This document shows positions 1-55,467 of a DNA stretch of 64,000 nt, one piece after another (position 1 is the stretch's first letter; each line of letters opens with the position of its first letter). Source of the stretch: the human T2T-CHM13v2.0 reference genome, Homo sapiens. The notes beneath the pieces are model-generated. The model searched no databases. It had not been told where the DNA came from and saw only the letters and a list, made by a program, of their open reading frames with translations. The stretch is taken from NCBI RefSeq assembly GCF_009914755.1, contig NC_060935.1; one strand, given 5' to 3'. The position numbers and the translations under genes are program-made.

Positions 1-120
1 CTGAAGCTGCATAGTGGTGATGGTTTTACAACACTGTGAATGTACTAAATGCCACTAAATTGCACACTTTTAACTGGTTTAAGTGGTAAATTGTATGTGT
101 ATTTTACAACTTTTTTTAAA
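1..120 (+). mobile_element. Old L1M (L1MB/MC-like) 3' end
   Basis: atagtggtgatggtt..acaacactgtgaatgtactaaatgccact..ttgcacactttt is typical L1M 3'UTR. Confidence 0.8.
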
Positions 121-1374
121 AGCCCCATTCAACTTAAGGATGCTTCACCACTGCCCTTTCATCATTTTCCCAAGCTATCTCAAAGAAAAGAGTTTGCTTG
201 GGAGCACAATGGAAAAGATTAGCTCGAGAGAGTGGTAGAGCTGAGGGAAGGTTTTCCTGAGAATGGGCAGAAAAGAGCAGGTTTGGAAGGAAGGGAGCCA
301 GGGGAATGGAAAGTGACAGAGGAAGAGGGGAACAACACACTGTAGTCTCCCCTGCTGCACTTTGATGCAGCTCTGAAGGCTTCTTAAGGACCTGTGTTAC
401 CTGCTGGAAGGTTCTTGGGGCCACCGCAGCACAATCTCTTTGTTAGAAGGACCCTGAAGCAGTGGGGTGAACACAGATGGGCCCCTCCTCCCCTCCTTAG
501 ATGTGGCATGTATACTGTTGCTGTTCCTAAGGGAGAAATAATTGGACAGATAATTAATAATAATAATACCTCATGACTGCCTCTCTGGCAGGTGCTTAGC
601 TATAGCCCCAGGAGCTTGGTAGCTGAATAATCCTCTATTATAAATTGATTTCTCAGTGAATAGTATTATTGGTATTAATAATTAGAGCCAATTTACTATT
701 ACATACACTATTGAGGGGAGCAACAATGTGTGTAATCTGCAGCACAAGATGACTTTTTAAATGCTTTGCATTGTGTCACGGGTATTTGGCTGTCCTTCAA
801 TATATTTACTTTCTTGATTATGTCTGACTTGGGATAATTTGAAAGTCACTTTGCATTCCCAGAGGAGGGCCATGCAAGTATCACTCTCCTGGTTTCTTTC
901 CTTCCTGCAAACATGCTTAGCTCTCCCCATTCTAATAAATGTTGACCTTAAACTAAAAACCAGCTTTTAAAAATTCTATAAATAATATAATTGAGAGCAA
1001 GATATATTAGAATGATGGTAGCAGTAATTAATGAGTCTCAGTCTAATCTGCCTTAAAACATTTGGGCAATGTTTACTAGTCAATAACATTTAAATCTCCT
1101 TGATAGTCGTTCATCCAATAAACAAATTTTGAGGGCCATGTAGCGGGTGCAGAAGATACAGAAATAAATAAGATCATTGCTCTCAAGGAACCACTGCTCT
1201 AGCAGAGGAAACAGATGTAGAAACAAATCTTTCCTCTCAAATTTAATAAATATAAGGAAAAAGCAATCAACTCAGCCTGGAATCAAGGCCTTCAGTGAGG
1301 ATATACATGAGAGCTATCTAAAAATACTACCTCATGTAGCTATAAAATATTTGATTTTTTCCACTTAAGCATAT

Positions 1375-3690
1375 TTATTTATTTTTTATTTCATATAATT
1401 TCAACTTTTATTTTAGATTCAGGGGCAAATGTGCAGAATTGTTACATAGATATATTGTGTGATGCTGAGGTTTGGGGTATGAATGATCCCATCACCCATG
1501 TAGTGAGCATAGTACCCAATAGGTAGTTTTGCAACCCTTGCCCTCTTCAACCTCTCCCCTCTTTTAGCCTCCAGTGTCTATTATTGCCCTCTTTATGTCT
1601 ATGAGTACCCAATGTTTAGCACCCACTTATAAGTGAGAACACACAGTATTTGGTTTTCTGTTCCTTTGGATTATGGCATCCAGATGCATCCATGTTGCTG
1701 CCAAAGGCATTAGTTTGTTCTTTCTTTTTATGGCTGCATAGTATTCTATGGTGTATATGTACCACATTTTCTTTATCCAGTCCATCTTGGATGGACACCT
1801 GGGTTCATTCCATGTGTTTACTATTGTGAATAGTACTGCAATGAACATACAAGTACATGCGTCTTTTGGTAGAATGACTTATTTTCCTTAGAGTATATAT
1901 CTAGTAATGGGATTTCTGAGTTGAATGGTAGTTCTGTTTTAAGTTCTTTGAGAAATCTCCAAACTGCTTTCCACATTGGCTGGATTAATTTACATTCCTT
2001 CACAGTGTATAAGTGTTCTCTTTTACCTGCAGCTTCACCAGCTTCTGTCGTTTATGACGTTTTAATAATGGCCATTCTGACTGGTGTGAGATGGTATCTC
2101 ATTTTGGTTTTGATTTGCATTTCTCTGATGATCAGTGATGTTGAGCATTTTTTCATGTTTGTTAGCTGCCTGCATGTCTTCTTTGAGAAGTTCCCGTCTT
2201 TTGCCCACTCTTTAACGGGGTTATTTGTTTTTCGCTTGTTGAATTGCTTAAGTTCTGTATAGATTATGGGTATTAGATCTTTGACAGATGTGTAGTTTGT
2301 GAATATTTTCTCCCATTCTGTAGGGTTTCTGTTTCCTCTGATGATAGTTTCTTTTGCTGTGCAGAAACTCTTTAGTTTCATTAAATCCCACTTGTGAATT
2401 TTTGCTTCTGTTGCAATTACTTTTGAGGATTTCGTCGTAAGTTCTTTCCCAAGGCCAATGTCCACAGGGTCTTTCTGAGGTTTTCTTCTAGATTCTTGAA
2501 GTTTGAGGTCTTACATTTAAATCTTTAATTCATCTTTTCTTTTTTTTTTTTTTTTTGAGACAGAGTCTTGCACTGTTTCCCAGGCTGGAGTGCAGCGGCT
2601 GATCTCGGCTCACTGCAAGCTCCGCCTCCTGGGTTCATGCCATTCTCCTGGCTCAGCCTCCCAAGTAGTTGGGACTACAGGCACCCGCCACCACGCCTGG
2701 CTAATTTTTTATACTTTTAGTAGAGACAGGGTTTCACCGTGTTAGCCAGGATGGTCTCAATCTCCTCACCTCGTGATCCGCCTGCCTCGGCCTCCCAAAG
2801 CGCTGGGATTACAGGCATGAGCCACCACGCCCGGCCAATTCATCTTTTGTATATGATGAAAGCTAGGGGTTCAGTTTCATTCTTCTACATACATCCAGCC
2901 AGCTATACCAGCATTATTTATTGAATGGGGAGTCCCTTCCACATTGCCTATTTTTGTCATCTTTAATGAAGATCACGTGGCTGTAGGTATATGGCTTTAT
3001 TTCTGGGTTCTCTATCCTGTTCCAGTGACCTATGTGTCTGTTTTTGTAACAGTACCAAGCTGTTTCAGTTACTGTAGCCTTATAGTATAGTTTGAAGTTA
3101 GGCAATGTGATGCTTCTGGCTTTGTTCCTTTTGCTTAAGATTGCTTTGGCTATTTGGGCTATTTTTCTGGTTCCATATGAGTTTTAGAATAGTTTTTTCT
3201 AGTTCTGTCAAAAATGACATTGATAGTTTGATAGGAATGACATTGAATCTATAGATTGCTTTGGGCAGTATGGCCATTTTAATGATATCAATTCTTCCAA
3301 TCCATGAGCATGAAATGTTTTTTCATTTGTTTATGTCATCTACAATTTCTTTCAGCAGTGTTTTGTAACTTTTGTAGAAACCTTTCACCTCCTTGGTTAG
3401 ATGTACTCCCAGGTATTTGTGCATGTGTGTGTGGCTATTGTAAATGGGATCGTGTTCTTGATTTGGCTCTCGGCTTGAACATCATTTCTGTATAGAAATG
3501 CTACTGAGTTTTGTACATTGATTTTTGTATCCTGAAACTTTACTGAAGTCAGTTCCAGAAGCCTTCTGTCAGAGTCTTCAGGGTTTTCTAGGTAGCCAAT
3601 CATATCATCAGTGAAGAGATATTTTGAGTTCTTCTTTTCCTATTTGATGCCTTTTATTTCTTTCTCTTGATTTCTCTGGTTAGGACTTCC
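1375..3690 (-). mobile_element. 5'-truncated L1 (old L1PA/L1PB-like): ORF2 C-terminus and 3'UTR
   Basis: ORF2 peptides [40 protein letters not shown]; T-rich tail at ~1375. Confidence 0.93.
2539..2836 (-). mobile_element. AluY-like insertion in L1
   Basis: Full Alu with gcaagctccgcc/gccattctcc diagnostics; TSD AATTCATCTTTT at 2527-2538 and 2837-2848. Confidence 0.93.
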
Positions 3691-25435: not shown

Positions 25436-26487
25436 TATTGCTTTATGTAAACAAAAAAGCAGAAACTGTGGAATATAACCCTTTCAGCACATCCTACAGA
25501 TTTAATTTTAAATGTTCGATCAGGTGTTTTATACATGTTATGAATGAGTATAACTTTTTAAAAATTCCTATATTAAAATTATTCTTATTCTTCTGTCACC
25601 TTTTTGTAGCTGGTTATGTTTAGCAACCATTTAAAATACCCTTTAATTACATAATGCCAATCAAAATCTTGTCACGGTGGGCCGTGTGAGAGTCCTAGTC
25701 CTTAATCAACATTGCATTGTTTCTAATTTCACTTCCAAAGTATATTCTCATCTGGAGTGACAACATGTAAAAAAAAAAAATTCTTACATTTCACATCTCA
25801 CACTTACAATCTAAACTGCACGGGACACAGTGGTAATCAGACTATATTGTTTCAATCCTAAATCTAACAGTAGGAGGACATGGGGCTCCTAATGGAAAGA
25901 ATTAATCAGGGGCTTTTTTTGGTATTCATGGAAGGGGGAGATAATCTTTCTGCAGAGTGACATCCTTTTGAGAGAGCTCAGCTTCTGGCTGTGAAACCCA
26001 TTCCCATGTGATTTCTTTCTAACAAGCCAGAAAGCTGCTTTAATCTTTAAACATGAAGGATCCTGCTTACAGTATCAAAGGTAGGCAAGTTCTCTTACTG
26101 AGGTTCAAAAGCAGATAATAATAAGAACCCAGTTGCTACTGTCAGGCTGATGTCAGGTCTGAAATCACTTTTCACTTGATTGAGCTATTTTGTCCTCAGA
26201 ATCACTTTGTTCCTTTTGGCTGGATTTCCACCAGCCCCTAATTGTGAGCAGCACATCGATGCTTCCCCAGTGGCTTCATGTCAGAAGTTAGAGCCTCTGC
26301 ATAGTAGACATGTTATTTAATATCCAGACTCCGTGTAGCCCAGGGATAGCCAGGTAGTTCTTCTCCACGGTGCTCCAGGATCACTTGCCCTGCTGCCCCA
26401 GGGGCACGCAACTCCCCAGCACGGCTCAGGGAGGAGGTCCACTCCAACCAGGCAGGTAACCAGGATGCCAGGCTTTTCTTTTCTTTT

Positions 26488-26709
26488 AAGGGATGAATTC
26501 TTCCTTCCTCTGCCTTTTATTTTATGTACACCCTCAACAAATTGGATGATGCCCACCCACCTTGGGGATGGCAATCTCCTTTACTGAGTCCCCCAATTCA
26601 AATGCAAATGTCCTCTGTAAACACAGTCAAGACACTCCAGAGTAATGTTTAAACACATATCTGGCACCCTGTGGCCTATTCAAATTGACATATAAAATTA
26701 ACCATCACA
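26488..26709 (-). mobile_element. MLT2-type ERVL LTR, first ~220 bp only
   Basis: Minus strand begins TGTGATGGTTAATTTTATATGTCAA (MLT2 start) and stops at the A-rich tail/TSD. Confidence 0.88.
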
Positions 26710-29700
26710 AGTTTACCCTTGTCAACTTGGCACCCATACACATCTCCTTAAACCATACGTAACTGCCACATAAAGACAATAACAAGGTCATAATTCCATC
26801 TAACATGATTAACAATCCAGCATTCTACCAGAAACACACGAACCCATTTCCCAGAAGGGAAGGTAAAGTCTTCATGTGATATTTACTCTCTCCTTGATAT
26901 CCCATAACTTAAATAATATGATGTAAAATTAATCAAGGTTGAACATTGGAGCTAGTTTTAAAAATTAACAATATTTAAACACTATGCTATAAAATCAATG
27001 CATCTTATGTTACAGAATAAGGAAATGAGAAGAAAGAAAACAAAGCTACACACACACAAAATGGAGTCATAGCAAAATATGGAGGACGACAATCACAGTC
27101 TGTTTCTGTAACTGGTCATACGATCAAAGCTAGTATTTCTTCCACCACTTATTCTGTATTCCCTTTGCCTTCAGCAAGCACCTCATCTGGTCATGGTATT
27201 TACCCAGTGGTGACCCAAACCTTTATTCCTGAAAGGTCTGAGTCATTAGTGGTCCTGTCTGAATTAGGTTGTAGTTTTCCACTGACCTTAATCACAGGGC
27301 ATGGTAACATTAAGAGATGCCCTAAGGAATCTCGTGTCTTTCTGACATAGTTTTCCTTACCACCATCTGGGGGTAGTCCAGTTTCTACTTGGTAGTCAGG
27401 AACAATCACCCAGCCAGCACTGTAATTCATTTGTCTATTGAGTTAGAGACATGAGAAGCACAAAATGGCTGAGGAGCAGTCTTAAACTTGCAGTTCAATT
27501 AAATCATTATTGTGTCTCTCAGAGGAAAACTTTCCACCCTATGTAAGACCTCTAGGCCAGCAGAGCATAAGTCATGGGAACAGGAAGCAAAAATTGTACT
27601 AGTGGGTCACTAGGGCTAATAGCGAATGGTGTCCCACCTACTTTGACCCCTTGATTCCTGAACCTGTGAATCCCAGTCTTAAGAGAAATGCACCATATAC
27701 TGGATGCTGATTCAGAGCATAGACAGCCTTCTAGAGAACCTTGTCCCAGCCCTACAAGGCACTGCTATATAGCTGGTGCGATTACTGTCTTCAAAATGTC
27801 ATTCCACTGCTCTATGTAGCCAGTTGATTCAGGATAGTAGGGAACATGGTAAGACCAGTTAATTCCATGAGCATGGGCCCACTGCCACACTTTTGCTGTG
27901 AACTGAGTTCCTTGTAATGCTGTGTGGAATACCATGGTCGTAGATGAGACATTCTGTAAGTCCACGGATGGTAGTTTTAGTAGAAGCATGGCGCGAAGGG
28001 AAAGCAAATCTGTATCCAGAGTAAGCGCTATTTCAGTAAGGAAAAAACACTATCCCTTCAACGATGGAGGTGGATCAATGTAATTAACCTGCCACTAGGC
28101 AGCTGACTGATGACTCTAGGGAATGGTGTCATAATCAGGGGCTCAGTGTTGGTCTCTGCTGCTGGCAGACGGGGGACTCATAGGTAGCCTTGGCCAGGTC
28201 AGCCTCAGTGAGTAGAAGTCCACATTGCTGAGCCCATGCACAACCTCTATCCTTGTCACCATGGCTACTTTGTTCATGAGACAACTGAGTGATGATGGGG
28301 TGGCTGGAGAAAGAGGCCTACTGGTATCCACAGAACAGGTTATCTTGTCCACTTTATTAAAATCCTTCTTTGCTAACCCTTTGGTGAGCATTCACATAGG
28401 GCACAAATATCTTCACCCTTTTTGCCCATTCAGTATCTATCCACACACCTCATCTCCAAATTTCTTTGTCACCAATTTTCCAGTTACGTTCAACTCCCTG
28501 ACCATCCAGCCAAATCACTGGCCACAGCCTATGAATTGGCATATAATTGAATATCTAGCCATTTTTCCTTCTAAGCAAAGTCAACCAGGGGGACTGCTCA
28601 AAATTCTGTCCACTGGGAGGATTTCCCTTCACCACTGTCCTTCAAGGTAGCCCAGAGATGAGCTGTAGTGCTGCAGCTGTCCACTTTTGGGTGGTACCTG
28701 CATATCATACAGAATCCTCTGTAAACCAGGCCTAAGTCTTCTCTTTCTCTGTCAGCTGATCGCAGGGAAGTTCCCATGAAGTCATAGATGCAGGCTGGAA
28801 GAGAGAAGGCAGATAGCAGAAGTGGGAACTATGGAAATTTGGCTTACTTCTTCATGTAACTTCCTTGTGCCTTCAGGGCCTGCTCAGGCCCAATCATGTG
28901 TATACCATTTCCATCTGATGAAGGAGTGTTGCTGTGCATATCCAACTTTGTGTGTTGGTGGCTCAGATAACAACCAGTTCATGATGGGCAGCTCAGGTTG
29001 CATGGTAACTTGGTGACTCATTAAGTATCAGTCTCTACTAAGGCCCAGTAGCAGGCCAAGAGCTATTTCTCAAAAAGAGACTAGTTATTTGTTGGTAATG
29101 GCAGGGTTTCGCTCTAAAATCCTAAACCAAGATTCACCTATAGGGACCTCCCAGAAGCTTTAAACAGCATCCCTATCTGCCACTGCCACTTAAACACCAC
29201 TGGATCTGCTGGATCATATGACCAAGTGGCAGAGCAGGTTGCACAGCAGCCTGGACCTATTGCAGAGACTTTTCTTGTTCTGGGCCCTACTCAAAACTAG
29301 CAGCTTTTTGAGTCAATTGGTAAATGGGCTGGAGTAACATAATGAAATTGGGAAATGTTGCCTCCAAAACCCAAACAGGCCCACTAAGTATTGTGCCTCT
29401 TTCTTGGTTGTAAGAGCAGCAAGATGCAACTACTTATCCTTCACCTTAGAAGAAATATTCCAACATGCCCCATGTCACTGGATCTCTACCAATTTCACTA
29501 AGGTAGAAGGTCCTTGAATTGTAGTCATATTTATTTCCTTCCCTCTGATGCAAATGTCTTTCCACTAAGTCTAGTGTAGTTTCTACTTCTTGCTCACTAG
29601 GTCAAATCAACATAATGTCATTAATATAACCAATCAGTGTAATATTTTGTGGAAGGGAAAGGCAATCAAGATCTCTATGAACTAAATTATGACATAGAGT

Positions 29701-29815
29701 TGGAGAGTTGATATACACCGGAGATACAACAATGAAGGTGTATTGCTGGCCCTGCCATCTGAAAGCAAACTGCCTTTATGGACTGGTATGAAAAAAAAGA
29801 CATTTGCCAGATCAA
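26710..29815 (-). mobile_element. Degenerate ERVL internal region (RT, RNase H, integrase, dUTPase-like remnants)
   Basis: Minus-strand remnants IDLANVFF (~29790-29815), IGYINDIML (decayed YIDD, ~29610-29635) and integrase-like WSYHVPYYPESTGYIEQWNDILK (ORF 27765-28007); PPT-like junction to TGTGATGGTT LTR start at 26709. Confidence 0.9.
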
Positions 29816-30081
29816 TTCTGTTGCCTTACTAAATAATGCTGAAATAAATATTTCATACATAACTTTTATATTTAAAATGCAAATTATAAATATAAGATAC
29901 ATATTTACTTATACTTGTGCAAATAATTCTATAGGCCTGAGTGAAAGGGAATGTTCCACCTTTCTACCTTTTTTTTAATGACAAATTTCTGATAAAATTC
30001 CTTTTTACCTAATGAATGACTTCAGTTTCAAGATATGCTAAATGCATTCAGTTTCCAGTAGCACTGGGCACACATTGTATG

Positions 30082-30723
30082 CTAGAACTTGGTGAACTTG
30101 AGGACTGAAAGTTTCTTGGCCTGCTTGTCTGGAAAGTGCAGTGGTTCCTTGCAGACCTTTTGTCTTCATTATTTTCCAAATGTCTTCTGGGTTGTTTTCT
30201 TTAATGGTAACTAAATAGAATAATCCTTTTGGTGAAAGGAGATCTGGAACAAGGGGGAAAAACCTGTGCATGACTTCCTGACCATTTCTGCCAGCAGCCC
30301 AAGCTGCCTCTATTCCATGACTTCCTACCTCTTCAGGTGGAGTCACTACGTAGAGGGGATTAAACACCAGAAGATCAACTTTTCCTTCAATATTGGTAGC
30401 AAACATTTGACCACATCTGTAATAACTGGTTGAATGTGGACTTTGTTACACCGTGCTGTCTTTAGGGTACAAGCTGCTGCCTCAGGGTTGATATCAGTGC
30501 ACATGTACAAAGCCTGAGGACCTATCACAGAGGCTAGGAATGCAGATACTACACCAGACCCTGCCCCTATTTCCAGGCATATTTCCACTCCCGCCAGCTC
30601 GGCAGCCGCTACCTGGAGTACGTCCAGAAGCAGAAACGTGTCCTCCACAGGCTCATACACATCACTGAACATGCCTCAGCCCACATGCCCTTGCAATGGC
30701 GTGGGGAAGCTCTGGGCTGCCAT
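30082..30723 (-). pseudogene. N6AMT1: Processed pseudogene of N6AMT1/HEMK2 methyltransferase (CDS-homologous part)
   Basis: Intronless translation MAAQSFPTPLQGHVG*GMFSDVYEPVEDTFLLLD...LEIGAGSGVVSAFLAS...KVDLLVFNPLYVVTPPEEVGSHGIEAAWA...KGLQGTTALSRQAGQET matches N6AMT1. Disablements: TGA at codon 16, 1-bp frameshift near 30383, NPPY motif changed to NPLY, frameshift near 30110. The symbol given is that of the parent gene. Confidence 0.96.
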
Positions 30724-31257
30724 CTTCCTTCACTGCCAATGCCAGGCTTTTCTTTTTGCCCAAAAGGCCTAGAGAGATGCTGGGTTTTGTGAAGATTTTC
30801 AGTATTCACTTATGCAATTTCAAGAGCCATGCTATAAAAAAGTCTCCCACCAAAAACAGAGTAGGGGAAATAGATAAAATAACTCTGACAGTGAAATTCT
30901 GTCAGATAAAAGCAAAGCTGAGATAAAGGAAAGCCAGATAAATACATCCCTCCACAGACCATTAGCATTTAGCAATTTATACACCTGCAACTCCAGATTT
31001 GAGTGAATGGACAGTCTGTAGTTTGAGGTATAACCCAAGGTTTGTGAAGTCCGCAAACTCCTACCATCAGTCTCAGGCTCACAGTCATTTTTTTTTTTAA
31101 TCCACTAAAATTTTTTTTTGTATGTTGGACCCAAACAGTCAGTCTGAGGCTCTTTTGGAGGCCAGTTCTGGACCACAGTATATTCTCTACACTTCCTAAC
31201 TTGAGGCAGGTCCTGGCATGACCGAGGATCTTCCTCTCTCCCTGCTTACAGTTCACT

Positions 31258-54490: not shown

Positions 54491-55199
<709 letters not shown>

Positions 55200-55467
55200 T
55201 AATTCAAAATTTACAAAGCAATTCTAGAAATAAAAAAGCATATCATCTCTCTCCCCCTACTCCCTGGCTAATTGATGGCCTGAAAGTAAATAACAATTAT
55301 TGTCCTCCTCTCAGCCATCCCAATAAGCCATCCTACAGTGAAAAACAAAACAAAACAAAAACTACAGCCAGTTTGTGTACTAGGAACAAATAAGTAGAGA
55401 GTTCGTGTTTGGTTTTTGAACTCAAAAGTGCTTGCCATAGCCTTACTAAGGGACATGGGCGAGCGCT

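What the first reader, a model, noticed from the sequence alone, without database searches (positions are those of the whole stretch)
26465..30756. N6AMT1 retrocopy is about 4.26 kb and appears to have carried an ERVL pol+LTR segment as 3'UTR cargo
Seen: a perfect 18-bp direct repeat brackets 5'UTR, CDS, unique 3'UTR, ~3.1 kb of ERVL internal sequence and a partial MLT2 LTR, all in the same orientation. The ERVL does not continue beyond either TSD, and the site reads TTTT/G, close to the L1 endonuclease consensus TTTT/A. Inference: this ERVL never integrated here but was moved by L1 machinery inside a spliced host mRNA. Repeat and pseudogene annotation would likely split it into unrelated features. 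It would also date use of a long ERV-derived N6AMT1 3'UTR in the germline. From memory and unverified, N6AMT1 is on chr21 with a long 3'UTR and has a chr11 pseudogene.
Basis: partly seen in the sequence, partly recalled or inferred. Interest (0 to 1): 0.8.

Follow-up and report, generated by a model that had tools for sequence, protein, structure and literature searches.

The report
Full-length N6AMT1 retrocopy carrying ERVL UTR
This is an ordinary LINE-1-made processed pseudogene of the chromosome-21 gene N6AMT1, and it looks unusual only because the parent mRNA's long 3' untranslated region is itself made of an old ERVL retrovirus fragment, which was copied along with it.

Summary
A perfect 18-nt direct repeat (26465-26482 and 30739-30756) brackets a 4,256-nt minus-strand insert. 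The 18-mer matches twice in the window where 0.01 matches are expected.

The insert aligns end to end (93.3 %, largest indel 8 nt) with the spliced parent on contig C21. All five GT-AG introns are removed, and the 3.69-kb terminal exon is colinear. The ERVL part is 93 % identical to the sequence just downstream of the parent stop codon. It is at most 76 % identical to any other ERVL copy scored.

The copy ends 23-30 nt after an AATAAA pair inside the MLT2-type LTR. The parent LTR runs on to about 425 nt. That signal is present in only 1 of 28 other LTR copies, so it arose by point changes in the parent copy before retroposition. Both flanks are single-copy.

Divergence suggests an age of roughly 25-35 My; this is inference.

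The mechanism is standard. What is new is only the true extent: RefSeq annotates 983 nt and a published catalogue 1,312 nt. No outgroup or transcript data could be consulted.

The parts
30739..30756 (.). Target-site duplication, the copy at the 5' side of the retrocopy (gene orientation). Its last 4 nt (GCAT on the minus strand) also match the parent sequence just upstream of the copied 5'UTR, a microhomology.
   Evidence: perfect 18-mer, 2 matches against 0.01 expected; 5' junction alignment
30724..30738 (-). Short 5'UTR derived from parent exon 1. The copy is full-length or nearly so.
   Evidence: the parent ATG is at position 18 of the aligned mRNA
30082..30723 (-). Disabled N6AMT1/HEMK2 coding sequence with exons 1-6 joined. 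It has a stop at codon 16 (window about 30676), a 1-nt deletion at 30387 and a 2-nt deletion at 30112, and the NPPY motif reads NPLY. 184 of 215 codons are unchanged.
   Evidence: Pfam MTS PF05175, E 3.3e-5, 24 bits against a cut-off of 23; PDB N6AMT1 chains, E 4e-53
29817..30081 (-). Proximal, non-ERV part of the 3'UTR. Window 29826-30080 has a 77 % relative on C6, so it is probably an older repeat fragment itself.
26714..29816 (-). ERVL internal sequence, same orientation as the gene: the 3' part of pol (a reverse-transcriptase piece including the YxDD region, and the integrase core) down to the LTR. It is heavily degraded, with 49 stops in one frame.
   Evidence: 93 % to the parent, at most 76 % to other ERVLs; homology to other ERVL copies begins at 29816; integrase, prototype foamy virus, E 2.3e-5; weak MMLV RT match, E 0.09; stop count
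26488..26713 (-). The parental LTR is about 425 nt.
   Evidence: retrocopy matches LTR positions 1-226 at 93 %; other genomic copies match to about position 420
26516..26521 (-). AATAAA poly(A) signal inside the LTR. The parent has two overlapping hexamers here.
   Evidence: (a signal at the homologous place in 1 of 28 other LTR copies)
26483..26487 (-). Remnant of the poly(A) tail (AAAAG on the minus strand). The parent reads T-rich, not A-rich, at this point.
26465..26482 (.). Target-site duplication, the copy at the 3' side of the retrocopy.

Best explanation
A single LINE-1-mediated retroposition (target-primed reverse transcription) copied one spliced, polyadenylated N6AMT1 mRNA from chromosome 21 into chromosome 11.

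The parent's terminal exon is about 3.69 kb. After the stop codon it runs through about 265 nt of non-ERV sequence, then 3.1 kb of a 5'-truncated ERVL (pol 3' part), then the first 226 nt of that ERVL's 3' LTR. There, an AATAAA pair made by point changes in this particular LTR copy directs cleavage.

The whole mRNA was reverse-transcribed at a T-rich nick, giving an 18-nt target-site duplication. The ERVL is therefore passive 3'UTR cargo, and the coding part has since decayed into a pseudogene.

Shown: colinearity with the spliced parent, exact intron loss, the duplication, the position of the end relative to the poly(A) signal, and single-copy flanks.

Inferred: that L1 was the enzyme source, the age of about 25-35 My, and that the long-UTR form is the normal mRNA rather than a rare read-through.
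For:: perfect 18-nt duplication, far beyond chance.

six exon-wise matches on C21, and no other close copy.

five introns with GT..AG borders are removed exactly. The global alignment covers 4,235 columns at 93.3 %, with 15 indel events, none longer than 8 nt.

the ERVL part is contiguous with the parental last exon at 93 %. Other ERVLs are at most 76 %.

divergence is similar across the parts (K2P: CDS exons 2-6 0.056, proximal UTR 0.055, ERVL internal 0.065), as expected from one event.

the copy ends 23-30 nt after AATAAA. The parent continues with a T8 run and a GT-rich stretch, and with the rest of the LTR.

the parental LTR is about 425 nt; the retrocopy has positions 1-226.

the signal is present in both parent and retrocopy but in only 1 of 28 other LTR copies.

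the flanks are single-copy, so the ERVL stops at the duplications.

the parent ORF is intact (214 aa); the copy is disabled.

the two ERVL copies changed at equal rates (68 against 78 and 67 against 82 changes; chi-square 0.68 and 1.51).

(passage of PMC5470649): the hallmarks of L1-made retrocopies are intron loss, a poly(A) remnant, duplications and often a complete 3'UTR.
Against: The poly(A) tail is only a 5-nt remnant, and it merges with an A-rich duplication, so this hallmark is weak.

The nick site is TTTT/T (or TTTTT/G), not the canonical TTTT/A.

Exon 1 is much more diverged (79 %, K2P 0.25). Only 17 of its 32 mismatches lie in CpG context, so CpG decay explains only part of this.

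The LTR part is somewhat more diverged (90.4 %, n = 230).

No outgroup genome could be examined for an empty site.

No transcript or 3'-end data were available to show that the parental site is used today. One published catalogue aligned NM_013240 to only 1,312 nt of this locus, which may mean the RefSeq mRNA of that time was shorter than 4.2 kb.
Confidence: 0.95

Rival explanations
1. The mechanism is the same, but the template was a rare read-through transcript and not the usual N6AMT1 mRNA. The major mRNA would end at a proximal site, and the ERVL-containing form would be exceptional.
For: The parental UTR holds five other canonical hexamers upstream of the terminal pair, at UTR positions 103, 546, 1713, 2912 and 2924. 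RefSeq's pseudogene model stops at 29760, and a retrocopy catalogue's alignment of NM_013240 covers only 1,312 nt. The 77 % match on C6 covers only the proximal UTR.
Against: The end has the geometry of a genuine poly(A) site: an AATAAA pair, a 23-30 nt spacing, and a T-rich/GT-rich downstream stretch. The 1,312-nt catalogue alignment already reaches about 385 nt into the ERVL. I recall, from no call, that the current gene model spans about 13 kb, which would fit a 3.6-kb UTR. The flanks of the C6 match look like an old LINE rather than a retrocopy (the family name is recalled).
Confidence: 0.15
2. There were two independent events. A short N6AMT1 retrocopy landed next to, or was later hit by, a separately integrated ERVL provirus.
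For: This is how repeat and pseudogene annotation would split the locus. The RefSeq model covers only 29760-30742.
Against: The ERVL is 93 % identical to the chr21 copy and at most 76 % to all others scored. It is contiguous with the parental exon in one alignment. There is no 5' LTR, the 3' LTR is cut at 226 of about 425 nt, and the single 18-nt duplication encloses both parts.
Confidence: 0.01
3. It arose by DNA-level duplication or gene conversion from chr21, or as a chimeric retrocopy made by template switching between an ERVL RNA and an N6AMT1 mRNA.
For: Chimeric retrocopies and segmental duplications both exist in the human genome (general knowledge).
Against: All five introns are absent, which excludes a DNA copy. 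The junction between the gene part and the ERVL is exactly the parental genomic junction, with no breakpoint, which template switching would not reproduce.
Confidence: 0.01

Closest known systems
L1-mediated processed pseudogenes (retrocopies) of protein-coding genes
   Same: Intronless copy on another chromosome, 18-nt target-site duplication, T-rich nick site, an end at the parental poly(A) site, a complete 3'UTR, and a decayed ORF (the hallmarks are as listed in a passage of PMC5470649).
   Different: 78 % of the insert (3,329 of 4,256 nt) is ERVL-derived because the parental UTR is. For that reason annotation covers only 983 nt (RefSeq, hub table) or 1,312 nt (supplement of PMC4558860). 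The poly(A) tail is almost gone.
HERV-W processed pseudogenes (retroviral RNA retroposed by L1)
   Same: Endogenous-retrovirus sequence placed in the genome by L1 machinery rather than by integrase (abstracts of PMC5537654 and PMC5016936).
   Different: In HERV-W the template is the provirus's own transcript. According to the abstract of PMC5537654, HERV-W is the only HERV group specifically mobilised in this way. Here the template is a host mRNA that starts at the N6AMT1 promoter, and the ERVL is only a passenger in its UTR.
Transposable-element-derived poly(A) sites of human genes (Lee, Ji and Tian 2008, PMC2553571)
   Same: A host gene ends in an LTR element. Table 1 of that paper lists 11 conserved and 77 non-conserved human poly(A) sites associated with ERVL (passages read).
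   Different: The paper says LTR-associated sites are generally the elements' own sites. Here the signal lies mid-LTR and is found in only 1 of 28 other copies. It therefore fits the paper's other mode, sites created by mutation within a TE.
Retrocopies used as fossils of parental transcript structure (microRNA host-gene retrocopies, PMC7692494)
   Same: The retrocopy's ends and exon content record how the parent was spliced and terminated at the time of retroposition (abstract read).
   Different: Here the fossil records a long TE-derived 3'UTR and its poly(A) site, not an alternative exon or a microRNA-adjacent end.

Membership tests
L1-mediated processed pseudogene | All parental introns removed at the exact exon junctions | tested here: met
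   Five introns, each GT..AG in the parent, are absent from the copy.
L1-mediated processed pseudogene | Target-site duplication of about 7-20 nt flanking the whole insert | tested here: met
   Perfect 18-nt repeat, 2 matches against 0.01 expected. It borders the mRNA 5' end and the poly(A) site.
L1-mediated processed pseudogene | Poly(A) tail at the 3' end that is not encoded at the parent locus | tested here: inconclusive
   Only AAAAG remains between the last parental base and the duplication, where the parent reads TTTTTTTT. This is consistent with a shrunken tail, but it is short.
L1-mediated processed pseudogene | 3' end at a parental cleavage/polyadenylation site | tested here: met
   An AATAAA pair lies 23-30 nt upstream of the end, with T-rich and GT-rich sequence downstream in the parent. 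Present-day use of the site was not testable.
L1-mediated processed pseudogene | Insertion at an L1-endonuclease-like site (TTTT/A-type) | tested here: inconclusive
   The plus strand reads CTTTTCTTTT|TGCCC. It is T-rich but is followed by T/G rather than A.
L1-mediated processed pseudogene | Empty orthologous site in species that diverged earlier | not testable with these tools
   No primate genomes are held. A published catalogue lists an N6AMT1 retrocopy on chr11 in human and chimpanzee. Two further occurrences in that file were not seen, and supplements closed.
Autonomous ERVL proviral integration | Two LTRs (or a solo LTR) with complete ends and a short duplication made by integrase | tested here: not met
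   There is no 5' LTR. The internal sequence starts mid-pol at 29816. The 3' LTR is cut at 226 of about 425 nt. The only flanking repeat is the 18-mer, which also encloses the host gene.
ERV processed pseudogene of the HERV-W type | The copy begins at the proviral transcription start in the 5' LTR and ends at the LTR's own poly(A) site | tested here: not met
   The copy begins with N6AMT1 exon 1. It ends at a mid-LTR signal that 27 of 28 other LTR copies lack.
N6AMT1/HEMK2 methyltransferase gene (functional copy) | Intact ORF with the NPPY catalytic motif | tested here: not met
   There is a stop at codon 16 and two frameshifts, and NPPY reads NPLY. The parent ORF is intact at 214 aa. The fragment still matches PDB N6AMT1 chains at E 4e-53.

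The most novel reading that the evidence does not exclude
This locus would be a clean type specimen of an under-annotated class: sizeable ERV internal and LTR segments that repeat annotation counts as retroviral insertions, but that were in fact placed by L1 as passengers in host mRNAs.

Such copies would distort ERV copy counts, age estimates and integration-site statistics. Each would also be a dated fossil of when a TE-derived 3'UTR and poly(A) site came into use. Here, the mid-LTR AATAAA made by point changes was already in use roughly 25-35 My ago.

A bolder corollary: because the copy keeps the whole 3.6-kb UTR at 93 % identity, it could, if transcribed, act as a decoy for factors that bind the N6AMT1 UTR.
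Probability: 0.25. Interest if true: 0.4.

Novelty: new member of a known kind. Interest (0 to 1): 0.2.

Why it matters
It matters mainly for annotation.

The real retrocopy is 4,256 nt, about four times the RefSeq pseudogene model. A 3.3-kb stretch that would be read as an ERVL insertion on chr11 is not a retroviral integration at all. Retrocopy pipelines that discard or trim repeat-rich alignments would miss this; PMC2584115, for example, removed candidates that were more than 50 % repeat.

The copy also shows that a germline N6AMT1 transcript already carried the ERVL-derived UTR, and ended at a mutation-made poly(A) signal inside the LTR, at the time of retroposition. The equal substitution rates of the two copies suggest that the ERVL part of the parental UTR has evolved without detectable constraint since then.

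None of this changes what is known about how retrocopies form.

Tried and rejected
- Pfam on 14 separate ERVL ORF pieces gave no family at E up to 0.01.
Domain names instead rest on PDB sequence matches of two intact ORF pieces. The integrase match is clear; the RT match is weak.
- I looked for a paralogous empty site by searching both 400-nt flanks against the genome. Each matched only itself. This shows the flanks are unique but gives no empty site.
- I considered the C6 match to the proximal UTR as a possible older short-UTR retrocopy. There is no poly(A) run at its end, and its flanks look like an old LINE (the family name is recalled). I set this idea aside without resolving it.
- Supplement look-ups closed, so I could not see in which primates besides human and chimpanzee the catalogue of PMC4558860 lists this retrocopy. 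Two of four occurrences were seen, and a phrase search found none.
- Literature searches for this locus found no paper describing it or the ERVL in the N6AMT1 UTR. 'N6AMT1' with 'pseudogene' gave 16 papers, 15 listed. 'N6AMT1' with 'UTR' and 'polyadenylation' gave 10 papers. I saw the listings only.
- Searches for the general passenger phenomenon turned up no dedicated treatment among the 12-15 titles listed per search. Subscription journals are not covered.
- An Rfam scan of the window gave one unrelated hit.
Full report
**Observation**

The 18-mer ATGCCAGGCTTTTCTTTT is present, perfect, at 26465-26482 and 30739-30756. Allowing up to 2 mismatches, the pattern has 2 matches in the 64-kb window, against 0.01 expected. 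None of 100 dinucleotide-preserving shuffles gave two. Between the two copies lie 4,256 nt (26483-30738).

**Anatomy (minus strand is the sense strand)**

- A 109-aa open stretch at 30346-30675 carries Pfam MTS (PF05175, E 3.3e-5, 24 bits against a cut-off of 23).
- A 135-aa stretch at 30038-30445 matches PDB chains named Methyltransferase N6AMT1 / HemK methyltransferase family member 2 at E 4e-53.
- Downstream of the stop codon (30082-30084) come about 265 nt of non-ERV sequence.
- From 29816 there is sequence homologous to other genomic ERVL copies.
- One ORF piece (27765-28049) matches retroviral integrase cores, best prototype foamy virus, E 2.3e-5.
- Another ORF piece (29602-29775) matches the YxDD region of MMLV reverse transcriptase only weakly (E 0.09).
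- The ERVL reading frames are heavily degraded: 49 stops in one frame, and no Pfam match for 14 ORF pieces.
- The last 226 nt (26488-26713) match the start of an LTR family whose other genomic copies are about 420 nt long.

**The parent**

Searching the window's own genome with 29760-30738 gave six exon-wise matches on contig C21 between 27239238 and 27248577. Five are at 90-96 % and exon 1 is at 80 %. No other close copy was found.

Searching with the ERVL part (26483-29800) gave C21:27235978-27239278 as the best non-self match, at 93 % over query 1-3311 of 3318. This is contiguous with the last coding exon. The next best ERVL copies reach only 76 %, and the rest 68-76 % (40 of 4,124 first-look candidates were scored, so the counts are lower bounds).

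A direct BLAST of the locus against C21:27231000-27249500 shows one uninterrupted segment from inside the coding sequence to the end of the insert. It runs from window 30188-26490 to C21:27239667-27235978, at 93.2 % over 3,714 columns.

The five parental introns all have GT..AG borders and are removed exactly. A global alignment of the insert with the spliced parent has 4,235 aligned columns, 93.3 % identity, 285 mismatches and 15 indel events, none longer than 8 nt.

The parental ORF is intact (214 aa). The copy has a stop at codon 16, a 1-nt deletion and a 2-nt deletion, and reads NPLY for NPPY.

**The ends**

At the 3' end the copy stops at ...GAATTCATCCCTT, followed by AAAAG and then the duplication. 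The parent instead continues with a T8 run, a GT-rich stretch and the remainder of the LTR.

Two overlapping AATAAA hexamers lie 23-30 nt upstream of the end in the parent, and one survives in the copy at 26516-26521. This is the geometry of a genuine cleavage and polyadenylation site. Because the parent is T-rich rather than A-rich at that point, internal priming on a genomic A-run is excluded.

I aligned 28 other LTR copies taken from the 40 scored. Only 1 has AATAAA or ATTAAA at the homologous place; the others read AATAGAAC-type sequence. The signal was therefore created by point changes in the chr21 copy. Since both copies share it, those changes happened before retroposition.

The parental UTR contains five more canonical hexamers upstream. 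The template had read through all of them.

At the 5' end the copy begins about 15-17 nt upstream of the ATG, with a 4-nt microhomology (GCAT) between the duplication and the parent. The parental sequence just upstream carries repeated GCGCATGCGC motifs. I recall these as NRF1-type promoter elements, which would fit a transcription start close by, so the copy is full-length or nearly so (inference).

**One event, and its age**

Divergence is similar across the coding exons 2-6 (K2P 0.056), the proximal UTR (0.055) and the ERVL internal part (0.065). Two parts stand out:

- Exon 1 has K2P 0.25. Of its 32 mismatches, 17 are in CpG context, which fits decay of a CpG island after retroposition. 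CpG decay explains only part of the excess.
- The LTR part has K2P 0.10 on 230 sites.

With two other ERVL copies as single outgroups, the changes split evenly between the chr11 and chr21 lineages: 68 against 78, and 67 against 82, with Tajima chi-square 0.68 and 1.51. This means about 2.6-3.1 % change per lineage, and no detectable constraint on the ERVL part of the parental UTR.

Using substitution rates and a human-macaque divergence of about 6.5 % that I recall rather than computed, this places the event roughly 25-35 My ago, near the split of apes and Old World monkeys. The ERVL itself is far older: it is at most 76 % identical to its relatives.

Both 400-nt flanks are single-copy in the genome. 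The ERVL therefore stops at the duplications, but no paralogous empty site exists to inspect.

**Mechanism**

All of this is what target-primed reverse transcription by LINE-1 does to a cellular mRNA. The hallmarks are intron loss, duplications, a complete 3'UTR and a poly(A) remnant, as listed in a passage of PMC5470649.

Two hallmarks are weak here. The tail is only 5 nt, and the nick site is TTTT/T (or TTTTT/G) rather than TTTT/A.

**Rivals**

- Independent ERVL integration is excluded by the 93 % against 76 % contrast, the missing 5' LTR, the LTR cut at 226 of about 425 nt, and the single enclosing duplication.
- DNA duplication is excluded by intron loss.
- Template switching is excluded by the parental junction being preserved base for base.
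- What remains open is whether the template was the usual mRNA or a rare read-through. I could not consult transcript data. I recall a gene span that fits a 3.6-kb UTR, but a 2015 catalogue aligned NM_013240 to only 1,312 nt here.

**What is known**

The pseudogene is annotated. RefSeq LOC642897 spans 29760-30742 (983 nt; hub table). The supplement of PMC4558860 lists an N6AMT1 retrocopy on chr11 in human (a 1,312-nt span) and in chimpanzee.

Neither annotation covers the 4,256 nt. One pipeline paper states that candidates with more than 50 % repeat overlap were removed (PMC2584115, passage).

Related facts already in print:

- Host genes ending in LTR elements are well documented. PMC2553571, Table 1, lists 11 conserved and 77 non-conserved ERVL-associated poly(A) sites (passages).
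- L1-driven copying of retroviral RNA is known for HERV-W (abstracts of PMC5537654 and PMC5016936).
- A HERV classification paper notes that some 'proviruses' may be processed pseudogenes and were not told apart (PMC4724089, passages).
- Retrocopies have been used as fossils of parental transcript structure (PMC7692494, abstract).

Searches for this locus found no description of it or of the ERVL in the N6AMT1 UTR (listings only). Searches for a dedicated treatment of ERV passengers in host-mRNA retrocopies found none among the listed titles. The library lacks most subscription journals.

**Verdict**

Its value lies in three points:

- It corrects the annotation: the true length is about four times the model.
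- It is a 3.3-kb ERVL segment that was never integrated by a retrovirus.
- It gives a dated record of a mutation-made poly(A) site inside an LTR.

Interest is low.

Noticed in passing
window 29826-30080 (minus strand: proximal 3'UTR); L004 = C6:152479352-152482618, positions 1501-1767: The stretch between the stop codon and the ERVL is not unique. It has a 77 % match on C6 and short matches of about 90 % on C18 and C2. The C6 flanks look like the 3' part of an old LINE-1, lying antisense to N6AMT1 (the family name is recalled). If so, nearly the whole N6AMT1 3'UTR would be TE-derived.
   Followed up: partly
window 30588-30742 (exon-1-derived part): This part is much more diverged from the parent (79 % identity, K2P 0.25) than the rest (about 94 %). 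17 of the 32 mismatches are in CpG context, but the non-CpG sites are also only 86.5 % identical. CpG-island decay explains part of this, not clearly all.
   Followed up: partly
L014 / C21 about 27248582-27248650 (just upstream of the parental 5' end): There are several tandem GCGCATGCGC-type motifs directly upstream of the point where the retrocopy begins. I recall these as NRF1-like promoter elements, which would place the transcription start where the retrocopy's 5' end suggests.
   Followed up: no
window 54905-55052, minus strand: This is the only Rfam match in the window: Metazoa_SRP, 72.2 bits against a gathering score of 70. It lies inside a stretch that NCBI masks as repeat (54842-55244), so it is most likely an Alu or 7SL-derived element rather than an SRP RNA gene.
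   Followed up: no
L013 / C21:27235972-27239294 against window 26483-29816: Since retroposition, neither copy of the 3.3-kb ERVL segment has acquired any insertion or deletion longer than 8 nt. The two copies changed at equal rates, so the parental ERVL-derived UTR shows no sign of selective constraint.
   Followed up: yes
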